Assembly (NCBI GenBank): GCA_000146465.1
Contig: CP001946.1
DNA length: 64,000 nt
Direction: 5' to 3' (one strand)
In this document: positions 33,805-41,467 of the stretch, one piece after another
Position numbering within the stretch: the first letter of the stretch is position 1
Layout: each line of letters starts with the position of its first letter
Position numbers and translations under genes: made by a program
The notes under the pieces: generated by a model
Databases searched by the model: none
What the model was told of the DNA's origin: nothing
Seen by the model: only the letters and a program-made list of their open reading frames with translations

Positions 33805-35508
33805 ATGAAAATCTTAATAACATCTGATAACCATCTTGGATACAAGGAGTCTGACCCTGTTCTGTTTGATGATAGCTACAATGCTTTTGAGGAGGTCTTG
33901 AAGACGGCGCAAAGGGAAAAAGTTGACCTGATTTTGCAGGGCGGAGATTTATTCCATGAGAATAGGCCATCTAGAAACTGTCTCAACAGAACTATAGGAC
34001 TTCTGAGAAGATACTGTGTTGGAGATAGGAGATCCTCCCTCAAATCAAACCATAGCTTAAACATTCATGACCAGAATATTGGAATCTCGATTCCTGTGGT
34101 GGCCATCCATGGAAACCACGATGACCCGAGTGGAATAAATATGATTTCTCCGCTTGACATTTTGCATAGTAGTGGGCTTGTGAACTACATAGGAAAGTAT
34201 AATCTGATGGACAGGATAGACGTTTTTCCCTTGCTATTAGAAGGAGACTATCGAATTGCAATCTACGGTCTAGGACACATTAAGGATCGAAGGTTATACA
34301 AGATGTTTTGTGAAGGAAGAATAATGTTCCACAGACCTCCGGACTGCGATTCGTGGTATAACATCCTTGTATTGCACCAGAACAGGGTTCCCAGAGAAAA
34401 GGAACACCCCTCAGAGGACTTTATAGACGACTTCTTTGATCTTGTGGTTTATGGGCACGAGCATGAAAGCAAAGTTATCAAGAAAGAACGTCTAGTACTC
34501 CAGTCGGGCTCCACGGTTAGGACATCGCTGTGTGAGGGAGAAAGGTATGATAAGTATATATATATTCTAAGGATAGGAAAGGAATGCATTCTAGAGCACA
34601 TTAAGCTAAGAAATGTAAGGCCGTTTGTCCTGGATGTCCTTCGGATTGAGGGAAAAGACAATGCTGAAGAGGTTGTTGGAAATAAAATACGGGACATGAT
34701 AGAAGCAGGGAAAAGAAAAGAAGTCTGTTTCAATAAAGAAATCACAGCCGTAGATGTTGATACACAGAGATTTAAATGCAAGGAAAAGAAAGAAGAAGAG
34801 AATGAAGAAGACACTATTTGTAAGAACTTTGCACATGAAGAAAAAGAATATACTCCACTGATTAGATTGAAGATTGAGAATTGTGGAAATAATGTGTTTG
34901 ATAGGCACAGGTTTGGCATCCAATTTAAAGGACTTGTGGCAAATTCAGGAGATATGCTGACCATATCTAGAAGACCACGAAGAAAAGAAGAAATTGAGAT
35001 AGAGGCGGTAGAGGAAAAGGTTGAGATAGCACGGGTATTAAGAAGAATTCTTAGGGATGTGGAGTTTGGGGTCTTAAGTAGGACAGGATTCTCGGAAAGT
35101 TTAGAGGAATTTGTAAAAGGAGATAGCAATGCTTTTATGGGGATGATCAGAAAGAACATCGAAAAGATTACGAAGGTGATTGACTATTCCTCAATTGTGG
35201 AAGAAGACGTAATAAAGACCATGAAAAGAATTAGCAATGAAGAAGATTTCTACGATGGCGAAGATCGCTTGGAAGACAAAGGAGATAAAGGGGCTTCTAA
35301 TGAGAAAAGAGTGGAAGAGAGTTTTACCAAAGATCTGGAGGATGAATATTCATATCATTCAGAAGACAACGAAAAGAACAAGGCTGGGGTCAAGAAGAAC
35401 TTCAATGTGGAAGATCTATTGGGAAAGAAGTATCTGAGCAAAAAGCCAAGGAAAAATAAGGAAGATTCAAGCACTGATGTTTCTTTTACACTTTCGAAGT
35501 ACTTATGA
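33805..35508 (+). CDS. MRE11: Mre11 double-strand-break repair nuclease
   Basis: Phosphoesterase motifs are present: MKILITSDNHLGY, GGDLFHENRPS, VAIHGNHDDPSG and VYGHEHE. Long charged C-terminal tail. Track start is TTG 33787. ATG is 33805, preceded by caccc. Confidence 0.9.
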   Translation: MKILITSDNHLGYKESDPVLFDDSYNAFEEVLKTAQREKVDLILQGGDLFHENRPSRNCLNRTIGLLRRYCVGDRRSSLKSNHSLNIHDQNIGISIPVVAIHGNHDDPSGINMISPLDILHSSGLVNYIGKYNLMDRIDVFPLLLEGDYRIAIYGLGHIKDRRLYKMFCEGRIMFHRPPDCDSWYNILVLHQNRVPREKEHPSEDFIDDFFDLVVYGHEHESKVIKKERLVLQSGSTVRTSLCEGERYDKYIYILRIGKECILEHIKLRNVRPFVLDVLRIEGKDNAEEVVGNKIRDMIEAGKRKEVCFNKEITAVDVDTQRFKCKEKKEEENEEDTICKNFAHEEKEYTPLIRLKIENCGNNVFDRHRFGIQFKGLVANSGDMLTISRRPRRKEEIEIEAVEEKVEIARVLRRILRDVEFGVLSRTGFSESLEEFVKGDSNAFMGMIRKNIEKITKVIDYSSIVEEDVIKTMKRISNEEDFYDGEDRLEDKGDKGASNEKRVEESFTKDLEDEYSYHSEDNEKNKAGVKKNFNVEDLLGKKYLSKKPRKNKEDSSTDVSFTLSKYL

Positions 35509-35531: not shown

Positions 35532-36041
35532 CTACAAGTTTTTTGACAAGTGAAGTCTACTAAATATACTTTCCACAGGCTTCTTCTTTTCTAAACTGCT
35601 AAACTTATCCTCTAGATAGTCTTCTGTAGAGTTTTTTTGAGGTTCTACCTTTAGATCTGGAAGGGATGGTGATGCTTCTAGATCGATATCCGAAGAAAAG
35701 TCTCTTTCCTCAATACTTGTGGAATCATCAACAACTATAATATAGCTTTTGGTAGGACTAGCAGAGAACTTTTCAATAAGCCAGACTGCGGAATTTATCA
35801 CGTCTCTACTCCATAGGATAGTTTTGGAATGAACCTTTTTGGCCTCTTCCAAGGCATTCATAGGCACAAAGTTCCCATCCACCACAAGTATGTCGCAAGG
35901 GGAAATTGCCTTTACATTGTTTGTAAAATGGATATGAGTGTACGAAAGCTTCATTTGGGTGTTCTGAAGCAGAGTATTTCCGATAAACATTGTAGGAGGA
36001 AAGCTCATAGGAGAACTATATGTTACTATTCTTACTGCCAT
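35532..36041 (-). CDS. hypothetical protein (169 aa)
   Basis: ATG verified at 36039-36041. No confident family. Acidic C-terminus. Confidence 0.5.
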   Translation of the reverse strand: MAVRIVTYSSPMSFPPTMFIGNTLLQNTQMKLSYTHIHFTNNVKAISPCDILVVDGNFVPMNALEEAKKVHSKTILWSRDVINSAVWLIEKFSASPTKSYIIVVDDSTSIEERDFSSDIDLEASPSLPDLKVEPQKNSTEDYLEDKFSSLEKKKPVESIFSRLHLSKNL

Positions 36042-36123
36042 GGATTAATTGTTTATGGGTATCATTTATCTTCAAAATCTGGAACCTGATGGAAAGTATA
36101 GTGGGAGGAAAGAATGCCCCCAA

Positions 36124-39000
36124 ATGCTTGGGTTTGTGGCTGGCTTTATAGTAGGACTTCTGTCTTTTCCGATGATCTATTGCCTGTTCCCGAGAGCTGT
36201 TGTTGAAGTTAACAAGAAAAAGATGGTAAGGATAAGCAACAAGAGTAAAGGAATTGAGATTAGTGATGAACAAATGAAAACAGTGATTAGAAGTATGCAC
36301 AGATGCAGAGACACCCACTGGATCAATGCTGTTATTCAAAGACTTTATATGGAGGTTTCGAAGTCGTATGCTATTGAAGCCAAGATCAAGTCTATTATAT
36401 TGAAAAGATTTGAGATGTCGGGAATTAGGAAATACTTCAAATCCATTGATGTCATTGAAGTGGTTTTAGGTGAGGAGGCACCATACATAGAAAACATCCA
36501 AGTTGTTTCCGACGACGACATACACAAAATGATCTTCTTAGAAGGACGGAAGTATGAAGATTGCGAAGAAGAGAAGTTATTCCATCTTGAAGAAGAGATC
36601 AAAAAGAGTTTGGAGATCGAAGGTATAATACCTGAAGAAAGGTGCGAATGCCCGATCGACTCAGATGAAAGTGTTCCACTTGAGGAAGTGGAAAATAGTG
36701 GTGTGGAAACAAAGACAGACAACAGGAAGAAGTGTGTATCAGAATTATCTACAAAGCTTGTTGAGGATTGCCTCACTTCTCAAGACAGAGAAACAAGTAG
36801 GATGGTGTTTTCACAGAAAGTTTTTGAGAATCTCCAGGTTCTTCTGGGAATCAGATACAAGGGAGGAGCTCAGATCTCCCTCAGTTTAGAGCTTCCTAAG
36901 AGAATAAATCTCAAGACAACGATATTTATCAAAGGAATGAAAGGAGATGTTCTTGTTCGAGTGCCTTCAAAAGACTACGATACAAGATATGAGTACTGCT
37001 TTTTGTTCAACCCGACTCTTTCAGTGGCTGTAGAATCGGGAATATCTGGAGAGATAGGAAAGCTTTACTTCCGGAAGTCGATTTCAAACTTCATAGAAAG
37101 ATATATAAGGCATCTCATAGCGAGGACGATGGTCTATCCATCATGGAACGGGCAATATCTTCCCTTTGTTGTTCCTCCGATCAAGGATGTAGTGCATAGA
37201 ATAGAAAAGGTGACCTTAGAAAACCATGCCATACATCTTCCACAGATAGTGGAGAATATTCTTCTCTACTCGTCAATGGATTACAAGATTGTAGAGGTTG
37301 ATGGGGAAGTAGTATATAGAAGGACAGGATATTTTATCAATGAAAAGGAAAGGATATTTTGCACACACTTTCCTATTCCTAAGACATCACTTAAGATATC
37401 TCATTTTGTAGGAAAGAACAGACTTTTCAAGGGCCTAACACTGCAGGAAAGCAAAATCATGAGCCAACTATATAGCTGGGGTGCCTTTACCAATGTGATT
37501 TCTAGGTTTCAGGAGTTGAAGATGAAGACCATCCTCACGCCTACCTCTTCTTTGGTTGAGCTTGAGTTTGAAAACATAAGATATGAATTCATAAGAGTAA
37601 TTGTGAAAAACACTTTAGTTTTCCAGAGAAACGATCCAAAGAGCCCGGAATTCATTGTATTTAAAATAGCCGATGAGGTTCTTTACATTTACCAATATGT
37701 GACCACAAAGCATTTCATGATGACCAAGAGAAGAATATGGAAGCTGAGGAAGAAGCTAGATTCTAAGCCGTTCACTGTTCTCGGATCTGTTTCTCTCTAC
37801 AAGCTAATCAAGTTCTCCAAAAGAATGATGCTTGATCATCTTCGAAAGCCTTTGAGCGAAGTTGTTGAGGAATCTACAGATTCTCTTTCTGTTGAGAAAA
37901 ACTCGGATACAAAAACAGAATTGATTGAGATATTTGAGGACATAAAAGAGACCTTTTCCGATGAAAAGTATCACCAGAAGAAAATGTGTTCAAAAGCATC
38001 TTCCGAGTCGATCTACAGGGTCCTCTCTTTGGACGAAGTTCGAACCAAGCTATTCTCCGAGAACTGTGGAATATACACGGTCATCAACGAGGCAGACAAC
38101 ATTCGCAGCATTGTCATCGAGAGTAGACTGCAAAGTGGAAGTAGTGAGTTTTCTTCTCAAGGAAACACACAACCGGATATCACTATGGAGATAGAAGAGG
38201 ATTTTATAATTCATTCTTATTTTGGAGAAGATATGATTATCGATTTGAGGTTTGGAAGGGAAAAGGAGATTCTGATATATAGAATAAGAAGGATGGAAGA
38301 AAACTCATATGGATACAGCTCAAAAGTAGTTCTTTATTATAGCAAATCTATGAACCTTAACTTTCCGAATTACTTTATAGAGGCTTTCCAACTGAGAATA
38401 AGACAGGATGAATATTTGATGATTGCAGCCCAGCATTTGTACTCCACATCCTTCCTGGAAAAGGAATTCCGGAAGGTGGTGGAGATTGGTAAGGGAGCTC
38501 TCTATATCGAGTTCTATACCGATGTTCCCGACGATTATTCCTTCACAGTTTATGGGGCCTCTGGAGATTCTGTGTATAGTATATACAAGGTAATTACGTC
38601 CCGGAAGGCGAGAATAATCCTCCCCACCGTAAAAGAAAAAGAGGTGTTTACTATTGTCCTTACTCCGAAGTTTAATAGAAACAGGAAAATCCACTACAAG
38701 ATTGTATCTCTTCCCGAGGAGTTTTCTACCGAGGTTCTGGTTGACTGCAATGTCGGGCTATCCAAAAACATGAAGTTTTATTGTCCTGTGTTTGGGAGAA
38801 CAGATTCGGTAATATTCTGGGAAAAAGGAGACGACAACGAGATCAAGGGATACATAGAGAATAGTGACACAAAAATAATGATATCAAGGAGTGGAACCAT
38901 GAGGACAGAGAACAGGGAATATAATATCTACTATAAAAACAAAGGAGAGAAAAAGAGAGATATAAAGATATTCCTTGGAATAAGTCTGAGAAGAACATAG
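36124..39000 (+). CDS. large membrane-anchored protein (958 aa) with N-terminal TM followed by an SMP-like (synaptotagmin-like mitochondrial lipid-binding) segment; lineage-specific remainder
   Basis: TM GFVAGFIVGLLSFPMIYCLF is followed by CRDTHWINAVIQRLYMEV...IKSIILKRFEMSGIRKYFKSIDVIEVVLGEEAPYIENIQVV, resembling the E-Syt/tricalbin/Nvj2 SMP N-terminal block. Track TTG at 36049 and ATG at 36055 would leave only 7-13 bp to the divergent neighbour. ATG 36124 (preceded by cccccaa) is preferred. Confidence 0.6.
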   Translation: MLGFVAGFIVGLLSFPMIYCLFPRAVVEVNKKKMVRISNKSKGIEISDEQMKTVIRSMHRCRDTHWINAVIQRLYMEVSKSYAIEAKIKSIILKRFEMSGIRKYFKSIDVIEVVLGEEAPYIENIQVVSDDDIHKMIFLEGRKYEDCEEEKLFHLEEEIKKSLEIEGIIPEERCECPIDSDESVPLEEVENSGVETKTDNRKKCVSELSTKLVEDCLTSQDRETSRMVFSQKVFENLQVLLGIRYKGGAQISLSLELPKRINLKTTIFIKGMKGDVLVRVPSKDYDTRYEYCFLFNPTLSVAVESGISGEIGKLYFRKSISNFIERYIRHLIARTMVYPSWNGQYLPFVVPPIKDVVHRIEKVTLENHAIHLPQIVENILLYSSMDYKIVEVDGEVVYRRTGYFINEKERIFCTHFPIPKTSLKISHFVGKNRLFKGLTLQESKIMSQLYSWGAFTNVISRFQELKMKTILTPTSSLVELEFENIRYEFIRVIVKNTLVFQRNDPKSPEFIVFKIADEVLYIYQYVTTKHFMMTKRRIWKLRKKLDSKPFTVLGSVSLYKLIKFSKRMMLDHLRKPLSEVVEESTDSLSVEKNSDTKTELIEIFEDIKETFSDEKYHQKKMCSKASSESIYRVLSLDEVRTKLFSENCGIYTVINEADNIRSIVIESRLQSGSSEFSSQGNTQPDITMEIEEDFIIHSYFGEDMIIDLRFGREKEILIYRIRRMEENSYGYSSKVVLYYSKSMNLNFPNYFIEAFQLRIRQDEYLMIAAQHLYSTSFLEKEFRKVVEIGKGALYIEFYTDVPDDYSFTVYGASGDSVYSIYKVITSRKARIILPTVKEKEVFTIVLTPKFNRNRKIHYKIVSLPEEFSTEVLVDCNVGLSKNMKFYCPVFGRTDSVIFWEKGDDNEIKGYIENSDTKIMISRSGTMRTENREYNIYYKNKGEKKRDIKIFLGISLRRT

Positions 39001-39051: not shown

Positions 39052-39477
39052 TCAACCGACCTGGGTTTGGGCTTGCAGGGCTTGGATCTCTTCTCTAAGA
39101 TCCCAGAAGTTGACTTGTGTCAGTTCTTCTGCTATTTCTGGAGATTTGAGCCCTATCATTGTAATGTTTTCCCCTCTCACTATAAATAACTCGTGTTTCC
39201 TTTCTCCGTATTTTCCATCATGGAATATCCTCTCTATAACTTTGTCGAGTGTTATGCTATTAAATTGATCAAAGGACTTCATTACGCCGTAAAGGTATCT
39301 CCCATCTCGGAGCATGACAACAACTTCCTGTTCCAAATACTTCTCGTAGTCCCTTGTATTGTCAAAATCTTCATCCAGCATCTCAAGGCCAAGAAGGAAG
39401 AAGAAATTAAAACTCCAAAACCGTCCTGAAGCATTAAATCGTTTTATTGATGGATATATAGGTTTTCTTAGGAGCAT
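39052..39477 (-). CDS. LSM1: Sm-like protein LSm1
   Basis: The Sm fold (VVVMLRDGRYLYGVMKSFDQFNSITLDKVIERIF...FIVRGENITMIG) closely matches the LSm1 signature LRDGR...RS.DQFAN...VERI...VRGEN. The upstream ATG at 39475-39477 abuts the Imp3 stop. An internal ATG at 39379-39381 is an alternative start. Confidence 0.8.
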   Translation of the reverse strand: MLLRKPIYPSIKRFNASGRFWSFNFFFLLGLEMLDEDFDNTRDYEKYLEQEVVVMLRDGRYLYGVMKSFDQFNSITLDKVIERIFHDGKYGERKHELFIVRGENITMIGLKSPEIAEELTQVNFWDLREEIQALQAQTQVG

Positions 39478-40020
39478 TCAAACATAGTTGAAGTCGTCGG
39501 CCACTCCGTTGAACTCGTCGATCTTCTTCTTGATCTTGGACTCGTCGACCCAAGACACAAAGTCCTCCATGGCTTTACTTATAATTGTTGAGGGATCGTA
39601 AACAACCTTCGACCCAAGCCTAACATGGCCATGCTCAACAAATCTCGTGGCGTCCTTGAAATTGGGGACCATTCTGATTCTCTTCATAACCATCGGCAAC
39701 CGTCTCTCACAGAATGAAGAAACAGTTACTTTAGTACAGTCCACAAGCTTTCTATTTTTGATGATTCCAATACTGTATAGCTTCCCTACAAGCTTCTTGG
39801 TTACATTTGCCCTAATGAGATCGTTTTCGGGAAGTTTTGCTAATTTCTCGGCCAGCTTCCGTATCTTCCCTACTATTCTGTTATATCTCACATACTCCTC
39901 TCTGTCCCGCAGACAGTACTTTACAATAGCAAGGTGTTCAAGCGATGTGTTTGTGTTCTTCCACTCGAGGAAGTTGACTTTCTTCAGAAGCTTCTTTTCA
40001 TGGAATTTCAGCTCTCTCAT
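39478..40020 (-). CDS. IMP3: U3 snoRNP protein Imp3 (uS4/S4-domain)
   Basis: Near-collinear match to Imp3: MRELKFHEKKLLKKVNFLEWK...YNRIVGKIRKLAEKLAKLPENDLIR...KVTVSSFCERRLPMVMKRIRMV...FVEHGHVRLG...MEDFVSWVDESKIKK. Track start is TTG. The first ATG is 40018-40020. Confidence 0.9.
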   Translation of the reverse strand: MRELKFHEKKLLKKVNFLEWKNTNTSLEHLAIVKYCLRDREEYVRYNRIVGKIRKLAEKLAKLPENDLIRANVTKKLVGKLYSIGIIKNRKLVDCTKVTVSSFCERRLPMVMKRIRMVPNFKDATRFVEHGHVRLGSKVVYDPSTIISKAMEDFVSWVDESKIKKKIDEFNGVADDFNYV

Positions 40021-40098
40021 GGGCTTTCCATCCTTCAAAGTAAAACTATTCTAAAGTCAAGAAACAGAGTAGCATTATTTAGACAGAAACAGAATTTA

Positions 40099-40635
40099 TT
40101 ATTTATCAAATACTTCGGCAATAAAATGGTCAAACAACACTACTTCCTGTTCCCGGCAGTCCTCCGTACTAATCGGAGAAAAGTGGAGTGTTTGGCTATA
40201 CTTCTCATTGCCATTCGAGCAAACACCAGGATGGTTTCTACCGCTGGAGGCTGGAGTCATCCTGAACGTTGGGGACTGGGGAGTGTACTCTTCGGATACA
40301 CTTGCACTTTCAAAGGCAGAAGTGGATATAAATGCATCAAGCTTCTTATAGTTTGAGTTGTCTTTTGCAAACTCCCTGTGCTCAAACTCTTTTATGTGTT
40401 CTTCATAATTGCTGAACCTGGTGTAGCAAATTTCACAAAAGCCTTCCCGAGTATGGCGGCGTTTGTTTGATTGTTTGTACTTCTTGGTGGCCTGGAAAGG
40501 ACAGCATAGAGTTGGGCTGTCCAGGTGAAGTTTTGGGGCATCTGAGTTAACGTATTCCTTGTAGAACGGTTGGAACTTGTTCTTAAAGTCCTCTATAAGA
40601 ACATAAGGCTTCTTGAATACTTTGTAGCTCTTCAT
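40099..40635 (-). CDS. Dbf4-type zinc-finger protein (possible Cdc7 regulatory subunit remnant)
   Basis: GFCEICYTRFSNYEEHIKEFEHREFA matches the CCHH ZnF_DBF signature. The protein is only 178 aa, so other Dbf4 motifs are absent or unrecognisable. Confidence 0.6.
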   Translation of the reverse strand: MKSYKVFKKPYVLIEDFKNKFQPFYKEYVNSDAPKLHLDSPTLCCPFQATKKYKQSNKRRHTREGFCEICYTRFSNYEEHIKEFEHREFAKDNSNYKKLDAFISTSAFESASVSEEYTPQSPTFRMTPASSGRNHPGVCSNGNEKYSQTLHFSPISTEDCREQEVVLFDHFIAEVFDK

Positions 40636-40768: not shown

Positions 40769-41467
40769 CTATTTAGCATGGACTTCTTCAAGACATCTTA
40801 GGACCTCTTCCTGCGCAAGGAATCTCTTACAGTCTTTAGAAAAGTGCAGGATCTCCATCCTATCCCCTTCTTTTGGCCCCAGCTCTCGAATCCTTCCAAG
40901 AAGCTTTAATATTTCAATTGTTGCTGTATTCATATCCATCTCTTCCTCCGGCAAATCGTTCTTAAGCCCTCCGTTAACAGCTTCTTCGTTCTCTCCATAA
41001 CACATTCCTTTCCATCTGTTTAATGTCCCACTTGGATCTGTGGAAAACAGGGTATACTCTCCGTTTACTATTCCTGCGTACAGGAAGGACACTCCAAAGG
41101 GCCGTGTCCCAGCATATTGAGTGAATGCTTGTTTTCTTTGCCCAATTGCCTTGCATAAGGTTGTAAGAGGACATTGTACTCCAAGCTTTTCTAGAACTTC
41201 CTGAGCTTTCAGCTGTGCATATCTCTTGAGTCTCATTGCATCTCCAAACAACCCAGATAGTGCACAATAAATATCATCACTCAGCTGGTAAATCTTTTCC
41301 ATCGGCCCATTTGTAGGCTCTTTATTTATTCCTATGAGAACAATACCATCTGTACACACATACCCAATTATTGTTCCTGCCTTAGACACATTCTTGATTG
41401 CAAACTCCACCTGGGGCAGCCTGCCTTCGTCCGTAAATGTGTTGGACTTGGGTTTGTTGTCCTCCAT
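40769..41467 (-). CDS. 20S proteasome alpha subunit (alpha7/PSMA3-like)
   Basis: FTDEGRLPQVEFA alpha-subunit N-terminal signature. The RPFGVSFLYAG...LFSTDPSGT core is present. Confidence 0.9.
   Translation of the reverse strand: MEDNKPKSNTFTDEGRLPQVEFAIKNVSKAGTIIGYVCTDGIVLIGINKEPTNGPMEKIYQLSDDIYCALSGLFGDAMRLKRYAQLKAQEVLEKLGVQCPLTTLCKAIGQRKQAFTQYAGTRPFGVSFLYAGIVNGEYTLFSTDPSGTLNRWKGMCYGENEEAVNGGLKNDLPEEEMDMNTATIEILKLLGRIRELGPKEGDRMEILHFSKDCKRFLAQEEVLRCLEEVHAK

What the first reader, a model, noticed from the sequence alone, without database searches (positions are those of the whole stretch)
36124..39000. 958-aa membrane-anchored protein with an SMP-like lipid-transfer module at the N-terminus
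- An N-terminal TM helix is followed directly by a segment resembling the SMP/TULIP domain found in E-Syt/tricalbin/Nvj2-type tethers at membrane contact sites.
- The remaining about 750 aa have no recognisable domains.
- An obligate intracellular parasite that cannot make most lipids de novo would benefit from a large tether/lipid-transfer protein at contact sites. The protein could be much diverged from known tricalbins.
Basis: inference. Interest (0 to 1): 0.55.

Follow-up and report, generated by a model that had tools for sequence, protein, structure and literature searches.

The report
Microsporidian membrane-anchored SMP–START–GOLD lipid-transfer protein
The 958-codon gene is real and does begin with a membrane anchor and an SMP lipid-transfer domain, but the rest is not featureless or tricalbin-like: structure prediction gives a START lipid-binding domain, probably a second START-like domain, and two GOLD-like beta-sandwiches, a combination conserved in all microsporidia and related to a chytrid-fungus family.

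Summary
The window is Encephalitozoon intestinalis. The ORF at 36124-39000 (+) is a real, conserved 958-aa gene, 100% identical to P7C65_05s2g07950.

The SMP/TULIP call holds:
- The window protein alone gives a sub-threshold Pfam MMM1 hit; its relatives give significant ones.
- An SMP-only family profile hits Mmm1 and Mdm12 in PDB.
- UniProt already auto-labels the orthologs "SMP-LTD domain-containing protein". No paper in the searched library mentions them.

The "tricalbin/E-Syt-like, rest featureless" reading does not hold:
- The SMP domain runs to about residue 345, split by an acidic disordered insert.
- Then comes a region with Bet v1/START-like topology.
- No C2, PH or PDZ domain was found.

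The family is pan-microsporidian. Its nearest relatives are chytrid proteins with an N-terminal SMP domain and C-terminal GOLD domain(s).

Most likely function (inferred): an ER-anchored, cytosol-facing tether that moves lipids at a membrane contact site, with the GOLD domains binding the partner membrane. I class it as a new variant of a known kind, of moderate interest.

The parts
36124..39000 (+). Complete CDS, 958 aa plus stop. E. intestinalis ortholog of ECU05_1300 / Eint_051360.
   Evidence: It is 100% identical to P0001. Encephalitozoon/Ordospora-clade orthologs are 47-76% identical over full length.
36127..36204 (+). N-terminal transmembrane anchor (aa about 2-27). Predicted N-out / C-cytosolic orientation.
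   Evidence: Hydropathy 2.19. Helix 2-30 in the model. 7 K/R against 2 D/E directly after it (the orientation is an inference from the positive-inside rule). G11 is nearly invariant in 50 sequences.
36265..37158 (+). SMP/TULIP lipid-transfer domain (aa about 48-345), in two halves.
36544..36798 (+). Acidic, largely disordered insert inside the SMP domain (aa about 141-225).
   Evidence: pLDDT below 50 for 163-217. 28 D/E against 15 K/R in aa 133-235. Only 15% mean identity, and length 0-224 aa across the family.
37216..37764 (+). START domain (aa about 365-547): alpha, three strands, two helices, six strands, C-terminal helix.
37768..37911 (+). Poorly conserved linker, low confidence in the model (aa 549-596); the model places a low-confidence helix at 556-573.
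   Evidence: pLDDT below 50. 24% identity and length 11-111 aa across the family.
37918..38433 (+). Probable second, minimal Bet v1/START-like (helix-grip) domain (aa about 599-770) with a variable loop at 668-692.
38443..38718 (+). First GOLD-like beta-sandwich (aa about 774-865).
   Evidence: pLDDT 93-97, all-beta. Weak internal similarity to the last domain, in register (hhalign P 0.0018, 71 columns).
38719..38997 (+). C-terminal GOLD-like beta-sandwich (aa about 866-958), eight strands, with conserved FWEK and YKNKGxKKR motifs.

Best explanation
The gene encodes a pan-microsporidian, single-pass membrane-anchored, multi-module lipid-transfer protein.

Architecture: an N-terminal TM anchor; an SMP/TULIP domain split by an acidic disordered insert; a START domain; a flexible linker; probably a second Bet v1/START-like domain; and two tandem GOLD-like beta-sandwiches.

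Proposed mechanism, by analogy with characterised SMP proteins (Mmm1, PDZD8, TEX2/Nvj2, E-Syts):
- The TM helix sits in the ER membrane with the rest of the protein in the cytosol.
- The SMP domain, probably as a dimer, and the START-type pocket(s) extract and carry lipids.
- The flexible insert and linker give reach.
- The C-terminal GOLD domains, which are protein-interaction modules in p24, ACBD3 and SEC14L proteins, dock onto a protein of the acceptor membrane. The protein would therefore both tether and move lipid at a membrane contact site.

It descends from the same ancestral gene as a chytrid protein family with an N-terminal SMP domain and C-terminal GOLD domain(s). It is not a tricalbin, and it is not the ERMES subunit Mmm1.

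Shown here: the ORF, the hydrophobic anchor, SMP homology, the predicted folds, phylum-wide conservation, and the chytrid relationship.

Inferred: ER location, cytosolic orientation, lipid transfer, GOLD-mediated targeting, and the identity of the partner membrane.
For: ORF and identity.

Anchor: one hydrophobic segment at aa 2-22, followed by a positively charged flank.

SMP domain:
- Pfam MMM1, E 0.013 for the window protein, 19/50 family members, best 8.2e-7.
- SMP-only profile against PDB sequences hits only Mmm1 (1.8e-4) and Mdm12.
- hhalign probability 99.9%, E 3e-31, to the chytrid family, and 99-99.6% to PH+SMP (Nvj2/TEX2-type) proteins.

Model quality: mean pLDDT 80.4 with a 50-sequence alignment. 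All proposed domains score about 80-97 and the linkers below 50.

Every folded module is conserved (28-37% mean identity across 50 divergent microsporidia), while the insert and linker are not (15-24%, variable length).

Family distribution: about 45 full-length members. Named ones come from Encephalitozoon, Ordospora, Vairimorpha, Pancytospora, Vavraia, Edhazardia, Gurleya, Binucleata and Conglomerata.

Chytrid relatives (Synchytrium, Polychytrium, Polyrhizophydium) are the next best hits. They align colinearly from the TM helix through the SMP domain into the START region (hhalign 99.9%, window aa 2-501 to P0067 aa 5-518). Pfam GOLD_2 is found in 13/23 of them, best E 4.9e-9.
Against: - The fold-search tools report no query ranges, so I mapped hits to domains from the secondary-structure order.
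- Outside the SMP domain, the profile match to the chytrid family is weak on its own (START region P 4.4e-4; C-terminal domains not significant).
- Nothing here bears on localisation, orientation, lipid binding or the partner.
- No literature or proteomic data were found for ECU05_1300 or Eint_051360.
- All orthologs carry a precomputed Pfam family, PF26547.1, which is absent from the local Pfam copy. I could not identify it, so part of this may already be catalogued.
Confidence: 0.65

Rival explanations
1. It is a divergent Mmm1, a remnant of ERMES that links the ER to the mitosome.
For: The best Pfam family is MMM1. The best PDB sequence hit of the SMP profile is Mmm1. Like Mmm1, it has a TM helix followed by an SMP domain.
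Against: - Pfam MMM1 also covers Nvj2/TEX2-type proteins; PH+SMP proteins match it.
- The Mmm1 chains matched in PDB are only SMP-domain constructs of about 240-255 residues. From my own knowledge, full-length Mmm1 is about 430 aa with nothing after the SMP domain. Here about 600 aa of START and GOLD modules follow.
- The nearest relatives are long chytrid proteins, not Mmm1. Wideman et al. 2018 (PMC6069729) report an extra SMP paralog specific to flagellated fungi; whether the chytrid family here is that paralog is untested.
Confidence: 0.08
2. It is a highly diverged tricalbin/E-Syt-type ER-plasma-membrane tether whose C-terminal sandwiches are degenerate C2 domains.
Against: - No C2 Pfam hit in 50 members.
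- The top beta-sandwich hits are GOLD domains, with near-complete coverage at 2.1-2.6 A.
- The SMP domain is structurally closer to Mdm12 and Mmm1 than to E-Syt2 or TMEM24.
- Chytrid relatives carry Pfam GOLD_2.
- START domains are not part of any E-Syt or tricalbin, as far as I know.
Confidence: 0.04
3. It is the microsporidian ortholog of Nvj2/TEX2 or PDZD8, with diverged accessory domains.
For: After the chytrid family, the next most similar SMP domains belong to PH+SMP (Nvj2/TEX2-type) proteins (hhalign E 2e-22 to 3e-18; Pfam). The N-terminal TM immediately followed by the SMP domain is the PDZD8 arrangement (from my own knowledge).
Against: - There is no PH domain between the TM helix and the SMP domain: the SMP domain starts about 20 aa after the helix.
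- No PDZ or C1 hit in 50 members.
- The chytrid family scores clearly higher (240 against 138-173) and shares colinear sequence beyond the SMP domain.
Confidence: 0.08
4. The lipid-transfer folds are retained only as scaffolds. The protein has a structural or microsporidia-specific role, such as polaroplast or polar-tube biogenesis, or display at the parasite surface, with no lipid transport at a contact site.
For: No functional data exist. The START and GOLD modules have diverged beyond sequence recognition.
Against: All modules stay conserved, with invariant residues, across the phylum. The N-terminal SMP plus C-terminal GOLD arrangement is also found in free-living chytrids.
Confidence: 0.1

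Closest known systems
Chytrid proteins with an N-terminal SMP domain and C-terminal GOLD domain(s) (e.g. Synchytrium microbalum SmJEL517_g05029, Polychytrium aggregatum BJ171DRAFT_601097). These are uncharacterised and may be the 'flagellated-fungi-specific' SMP paralog of Wideman et al. 2018.
   Same: An N-terminal hydrophobic segment followed by the SMP domain. Colinear homology continues into the region after the SMP domain (hhalign 99.9%, E 2.9e-32). They have a C-terminal GOLD domain (Pfam GOLD_2 in chytrids; fold match in the microsporidian protein).
   Different: The chytrid proteins are longer (about 790-1800 aa), with long low-complexity stretches. The C-terminal modules share no significant sequence similarity. 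The probable second START-like domain (aa 599-770) has no detectable chytrid counterpart. Identity with Wideman's unnamed paralog is untested.
Mmm1 / Mdm12 (ERMES SMP subunits)
   Different: There are no START or GOLD modules in ERMES proteins. ERMES is reported absent from microsporidia (PMC10648710). Here a single polypeptide carries several lipid-binding modules instead of a hetero-oligomeric complex.
Extended synaptotagmins / tricalbins
   Different: No C2 domains. The beta-sandwiches are GOLD-like. START domains are interposed. The SMP domain is closer to the Mmm1/Nvj2 group.
Nvj2 / TEX2 and PDZD8
   Same: Membrane-anchored SMP proteins of the same SMP subgroup (Pfam MMM1). They are the next-nearest SMP sequences after the chytrid family.
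   Different: No PH, PDZ or C1 domains were detected. The accessory domains are different.
START-domain lipid shuttles (STARD3/4/5, CERT, ACOT11) and GOLD-domain adaptors (ACBD3, SEC14L2, p24/TMED)
   Different: No sequence-level similarity. None of these proteins contains an SMP domain.

Membership tests
SMP/TULIP-domain lipid-transfer proteins | Sequence-profile match to the SMP domain (Pfam MMM1 / SMP_MUG190-like; PROSITE SMP-LTD) | tested here: met
   The window protein alone is below the cut-off (15.3 against 21.9 bits). The family passes: 19/50 members match MMM1 at E <= 0.1, best 8.2e-7. hhalign probability is 99-99.9% to other SMP families. PDB Mmm1 E 1.8e-4. UniRef names the orthologs SMP-LTD.
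SMP/TULIP-domain lipid-transfer proteins | TULIP fold (long helices wrapped by a highly curved beta-sheet) | tested here: met
SMP/TULIP-domain lipid-transfer proteins | Membrane anchoring and residence at a membrane contact site | not testable with these tools
   An N-terminal TM helix is predicted. Localisation needs experiment.
SMP/TULIP-domain lipid-transfer proteins | Binds and transfers glycerolipids; dimerises through the SMP domain | not testable with these tools
   No multimer prediction or biochemistry was available.
Extended synaptotagmin / tricalbin | Several C2 domains C-terminal to the SMP domain | tested here: not met
Mmm1 (ERMES) | Short protein consisting of TM plus SMP only, working with Mdm12, Mdm34 and Mdm10 | tested here: not met
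   About 600 aa of extra folded modules follow the SMP domain. ERMES components have not been found in microsporidia according to PMC10648710. I did not search the genome for the partners.
Nvj2 / TEX2 | PH domain N-terminal to the SMP domain | tested here: not met
   The SMP domain begins about 20 aa after the TM helix. No PH Pfam hit, whereas true PH+SMP proteins show PH_11 or PH_SMPa.
PDZD8 | PDZ and C1 domains after the SMP domain | tested here: not met
START / SRPBCC (helix-grip) lipid-binding domains | Helix-grip fold with a C-terminal helix closing a hydrophobic pocket | tested here: met
START / SRPBCC (helix-grip) lipid-binding domains | Sequence-profile match (Pfam START or relatives) | tested here: not met
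   None in 50 members. The domain profile against PDB sequences gives nothing. One chytrid relative matches START at E 0.12.
GOLD domain | Compact eight-stranded beta-sandwich of GOLD topology | tested here: met
GOLD domain | Sequence-profile match (Pfam GOLD, GOLD_2) | tested here: not met
   None in the microsporidian proteins. Present in the chytrid relatives (13/23, best 4.9e-9).
Chytrid SMP...GOLD family (unnamed) | Colinear homology from the N-terminal hydrophobic segment through the SMP domain into the following domain, plus a C-terminal GOLD domain | tested here: inconclusive
   The N-terminal 500 aa are met (hhalign 99.9%). The C-terminal part is supported only by fold, not by sequence. 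No phylogeny was made.

The most novel reading that the evidence does not exclude
In microsporidia, which have mitosomes but no reported ERMES, this conserved SMP protein may be a main non-vesicular lipid conduit. It would join three lipid-binding modules in one chain and use the GOLD domains to dock on the mitosome, the plasma membrane or the nascent polaroplast. A more radical version is that it is inserted with its domains facing outward, at the parasite-host interface, and takes lipids directly from host membranes. Either reading would make the protein essential, parasite-specific in sequence, and a direct handle on how these parasites obtain and distribute lipids.
Probability: 0.12. Interest if true: 0.8.

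Novelty: new variant of a known kind. Interest (0 to 1): 0.45.

Why it matters
SMP proteins are central to lipid exchange at membrane contact sites, and each known family pairs the SMP domain with its own targeting modules (C2, PH, PDZ/C1). My literature searches found no report of an SMP domain fused to one or two START-type pockets and tandem GOLD domains.

Such a protein would place a 'tube/bridge'-type module and 'shuttle'-type modules in one tether. It is kept in every microsporidian sampled despite extreme gene loss, which suggests it is important for parasites that depend on host-derived lipids and that reportedly lack ERMES.

It also offers a compact, single-gene system for asking how several lipid-transfer modules cooperate. 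It links microsporidia to an uncharacterised chytrid family, which helps reconstruct how SMP proteins evolved in early fungi.

The limits are clear. The SMP annotation itself is already in UniProt, and everything about function is inferred.

Tried and rejected
- Single-sequence and full-length-profile searches of PDB sequences gave only noise or nothing. Only the SMP-only profile with the insert removed found Mmm1 and Mdm12.
- The first AlphaFold2 run, with the 11 close orthologs, was too poor to use (pLDDT 53). It was replaced by the 50-sequence run.
- The AFDB libraries were not available, so I could not look for the same whole-chain architecture elsewhere.
- Profiles of the START region (A6) and the C-terminal sandwiches (A5) against PDB sequences gave no significant hits.
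- hhalign of the C-terminal modules against the chytrid family was not significant. The START region against the second START-like region was also not significant.
- A second word-indexed homolog search, with the 50-sequence profile, returned only the same 11 proteins.
- Weak Pfam I-set hits (3-4 members, E 0.002) and titin hits (E 1.6) fall on the last beta-sandwich. I treat them as generic sandwich noise.
- Literature searches for the locus tags, for microsporidia with SMP or START, and for the SMP+START+GOLD combination found nothing relevant.
- The identity of the precomputed Pfam family PF26547.1 could not be established.
- Rejected readings: tricalbin/E-Syt (no C2), Mmm1 ortholog, Nvj2/TEX2 (no PH), PDZD8 (no PDZ/C1).
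- Gene neighbours are unrelated housekeeping genes and say nothing about function.
Full report
**1. The observation**

The window is from Encephalitozoon intestinalis. The predicted protein is 100% identical to 'hypothetical protein P7C65_05s2g07950', and it belongs to the same 90%-identity cluster as Eint_051360 of strain ATCC 50506.

The + strand ORF ends at 39000, and the ATG at 36124 gives 958 aa. The mechanical ORF list starts earlier, at a TTG at 36049, and there is an in-frame ATG at 36055. Ten of the 11 aligned sequences (this protein and ten homologs from the Encephalitozoon/Ordospora clade) begin at the residue that corresponds to 36124.

The only strongly hydrophobic stretch is aa 2-22 (Kyte-Doolittle 2.19; the next best is 0.93). 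It is modelled as a helix. Seven K/R against two D/E follow it. By the positive-inside rule this suggests a signal anchor with the bulk of the protein in the cytosol; that orientation is an inference.

The gene sits in a typical compact microsporidian neighbourhood of unrelated housekeeping genes: Mre11, an LSm protein, an Imp3-like S4 protein, a DBF zinc-finger protein, a proteasome subunit, a DEAD-box helicase and a PUA-domain protein.

**2. Is there an SMP/TULIP domain?**

Yes.

- Alone, the window protein gives only a sub-threshold Pfam MMM1 match (E 0.013, 15.3 bits against a cut-off of 21.9; aa 58-132).
- Across a 50-sequence family alignment, 19 members match MMM1 (best 8.2e-7) and 17 match SMP_MUG190-like.
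- A profile of the SMP region with its insert removed (A4) hits only Mmm1 (E 1.8e-4) and Mdm12 (5.5e-4 and weaker) among all PDB sequences.
- That profile also aligns to other SMP families at hhalign probabilities of 99-99.9%.

The domain spans about aa 48-345, not 60-260. It is interrupted by an acidic insert (about 141-225) that is largely disordered and varies in sequence and length.

UniRef already names the orthologs 'SMP-LTD domain-containing protein'. This part of the finding is therefore correct but already recorded by automatic annotation. No paper in the searched library mentions ECU05_1300, Eint_051360 or Q8SVH3.

**3. What is the rest?**

At the sequence level nothing is recognised. 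The model, however, is confident (pLDDT about 80-97) over four further folded units, separated by low-confidence linkers (549-596, and a loop at 671-690).

**4. Relatives**

A profile search of 1.84 billion representative proteins found about 45 full-length relatives. The named ones come from Encephalitozoon, Ordospora, Vairimorpha, Pancytospora, Vavraia, Edhazardia, Gurleya, Binucleata and Conglomerata, so the family spans the phylum.

The next best hits are proteins of about 790-1800 aa. Those with names come from chytrid fungi: Synchytrium, Polychytrium and Polyrhizophydium.

- Profile-profile alignment to them is colinear from the N-terminal hydrophobic segment through the SMP domain and into the following region (probability 99.9%, E 2.9e-32; window aa 2-501 to P0067 aa 5-518).
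- Their SMP domain is the closest to the microsporidian one (score 240, against 138-173 for PH+SMP Nvj2/TEX2-type proteins).
- Thirteen of 23 carry Pfam GOLD_2 (best 4.9e-9); in the members inspected it lies at the C-terminus.
- One shows a marginal START hit (E 0.12).

The shared plan is therefore TM, SMP, a START-like domain and GOLD. The C-terminal modules are no longer alignable by sequence.

Wideman et al. 2018 describe an unnamed SMP paralog restricted to flagellated fungi (PMC6069729). The part of their species list that I read (alphabetical, through Saccharomyces) contains no microsporidia. Whether the chytrid family here is that paralog is plausible but untested. ERMES components are reported as not found in microsporidia (PMC10648710).

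**5. Mechanism**

This section is inference from the anatomy and from established knowledge of SMP, START and GOLD proteins.

- The N-terminal helix anchors the protein, most likely in the ER, with the domains in the cytosol.
- The SMP domain next to the membrane, together with one or two START-type pockets on flexible linkers, takes up and passes lipids.
- The tandem GOLD domains are protein-binding modules in ACBD3, p24 and SEC14L proteins. They would bind a protein on the acceptor membrane and so hold the contact.
- The partner membrane is unknown. Candidates are the plasma membrane, the mitosome, Golgi-like tubules and the polaroplast.

**6. Comparison and verdict**

The protein works like the known membrane-anchored SMP tethers, but it is not a member of the tricalbin/E-Syt, Mmm1, Nvj2/TEX2 or PDZD8 families. 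In each case a defining accessory feature was tested and not met. It belongs with the uncharacterised chytrid family.

My literature searches found no report of an SMP-START-GOLD combination. I therefore rate it a new variant of a known kind, of moderate interest.

Caveats:
- The non-SMP folds rest on one predicted model.
- The AFDB libraries were unavailable.
- The precomputed Pfam family PF26547.1 on all orthologs could not be identified.
- Nothing functional has been tested.

Noticed in passing
window 36049-36123: The open frame extends upstream of the accepted start. There is a TTG at 36049 and an in-frame ATG at 36055, only 14 bp from the start of the divergent neighbouring ORF. Ten of the 11 aligned orthologs start at the residue matching ATG 36124, so the extension is probably untranslated. 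The divergent intergenic space is only 82 bp.
   Followed up: partly
window 35532-36041 (- strand): A 169-aa ORF lies directly upstream, divergently oriented. It has no Pfam family at E <= 0.001. It may be a microsporidia-specific gene.
   Followed up: no
orthologs P0001-P0011: All orthologs carry a precomputed Pfam hit PF26547.1, and one also carries PF26544.1. These are absent from the local Pfam copy and from the paper library. What they cover is unknown: the SMP region, or a C-terminal domain already catalogued.
   Followed up: partly
P0135 (511 aa, distant hit; Pfam): This protein combines an SMP (MMM1) domain with a C-terminal SnoaL-like (NTF2-fold) domain. That is another unusual pairing of an SMP domain with a small-molecule-binding fold.
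   Followed up: no
A3 alignment: proteins P0062-P0098, of which P0067, P0074 and P0076 are named chytrid proteins: The consensus of this uncharacterised family shows a START-like motif block after the SMP domain and what look like two GOLD-type motif blocks at the C-terminus. It may be the unnamed 'flagellated fungi' SMP paralog of Wideman et al. 2018.
   Followed up: partly
P0054 (Edhazardia aedis, 1587 aa) and other members of A2: Some microsporidian orthologs are much expanded. The START region reaches up to 591 aa and the SMP insert up to 224 aa. Expansion occurs in the loops and linkers while the folded cores are kept.
   Followed up: no
window 33805-35508, 39052-40038, 40099-40635, 40769-41467: The neighbours are ordinary housekeeping genes: Mre11, LSm, an Imp3-like S4 protein, a DBF zinc-finger protein and a proteasome subunit. 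They are packed with intergenic gaps of 0 to about 130 bp. The LSm ORF and the mechanically called Imp3-like ORF (TTG start) abut at 39477/39478.
   Followed up: partly
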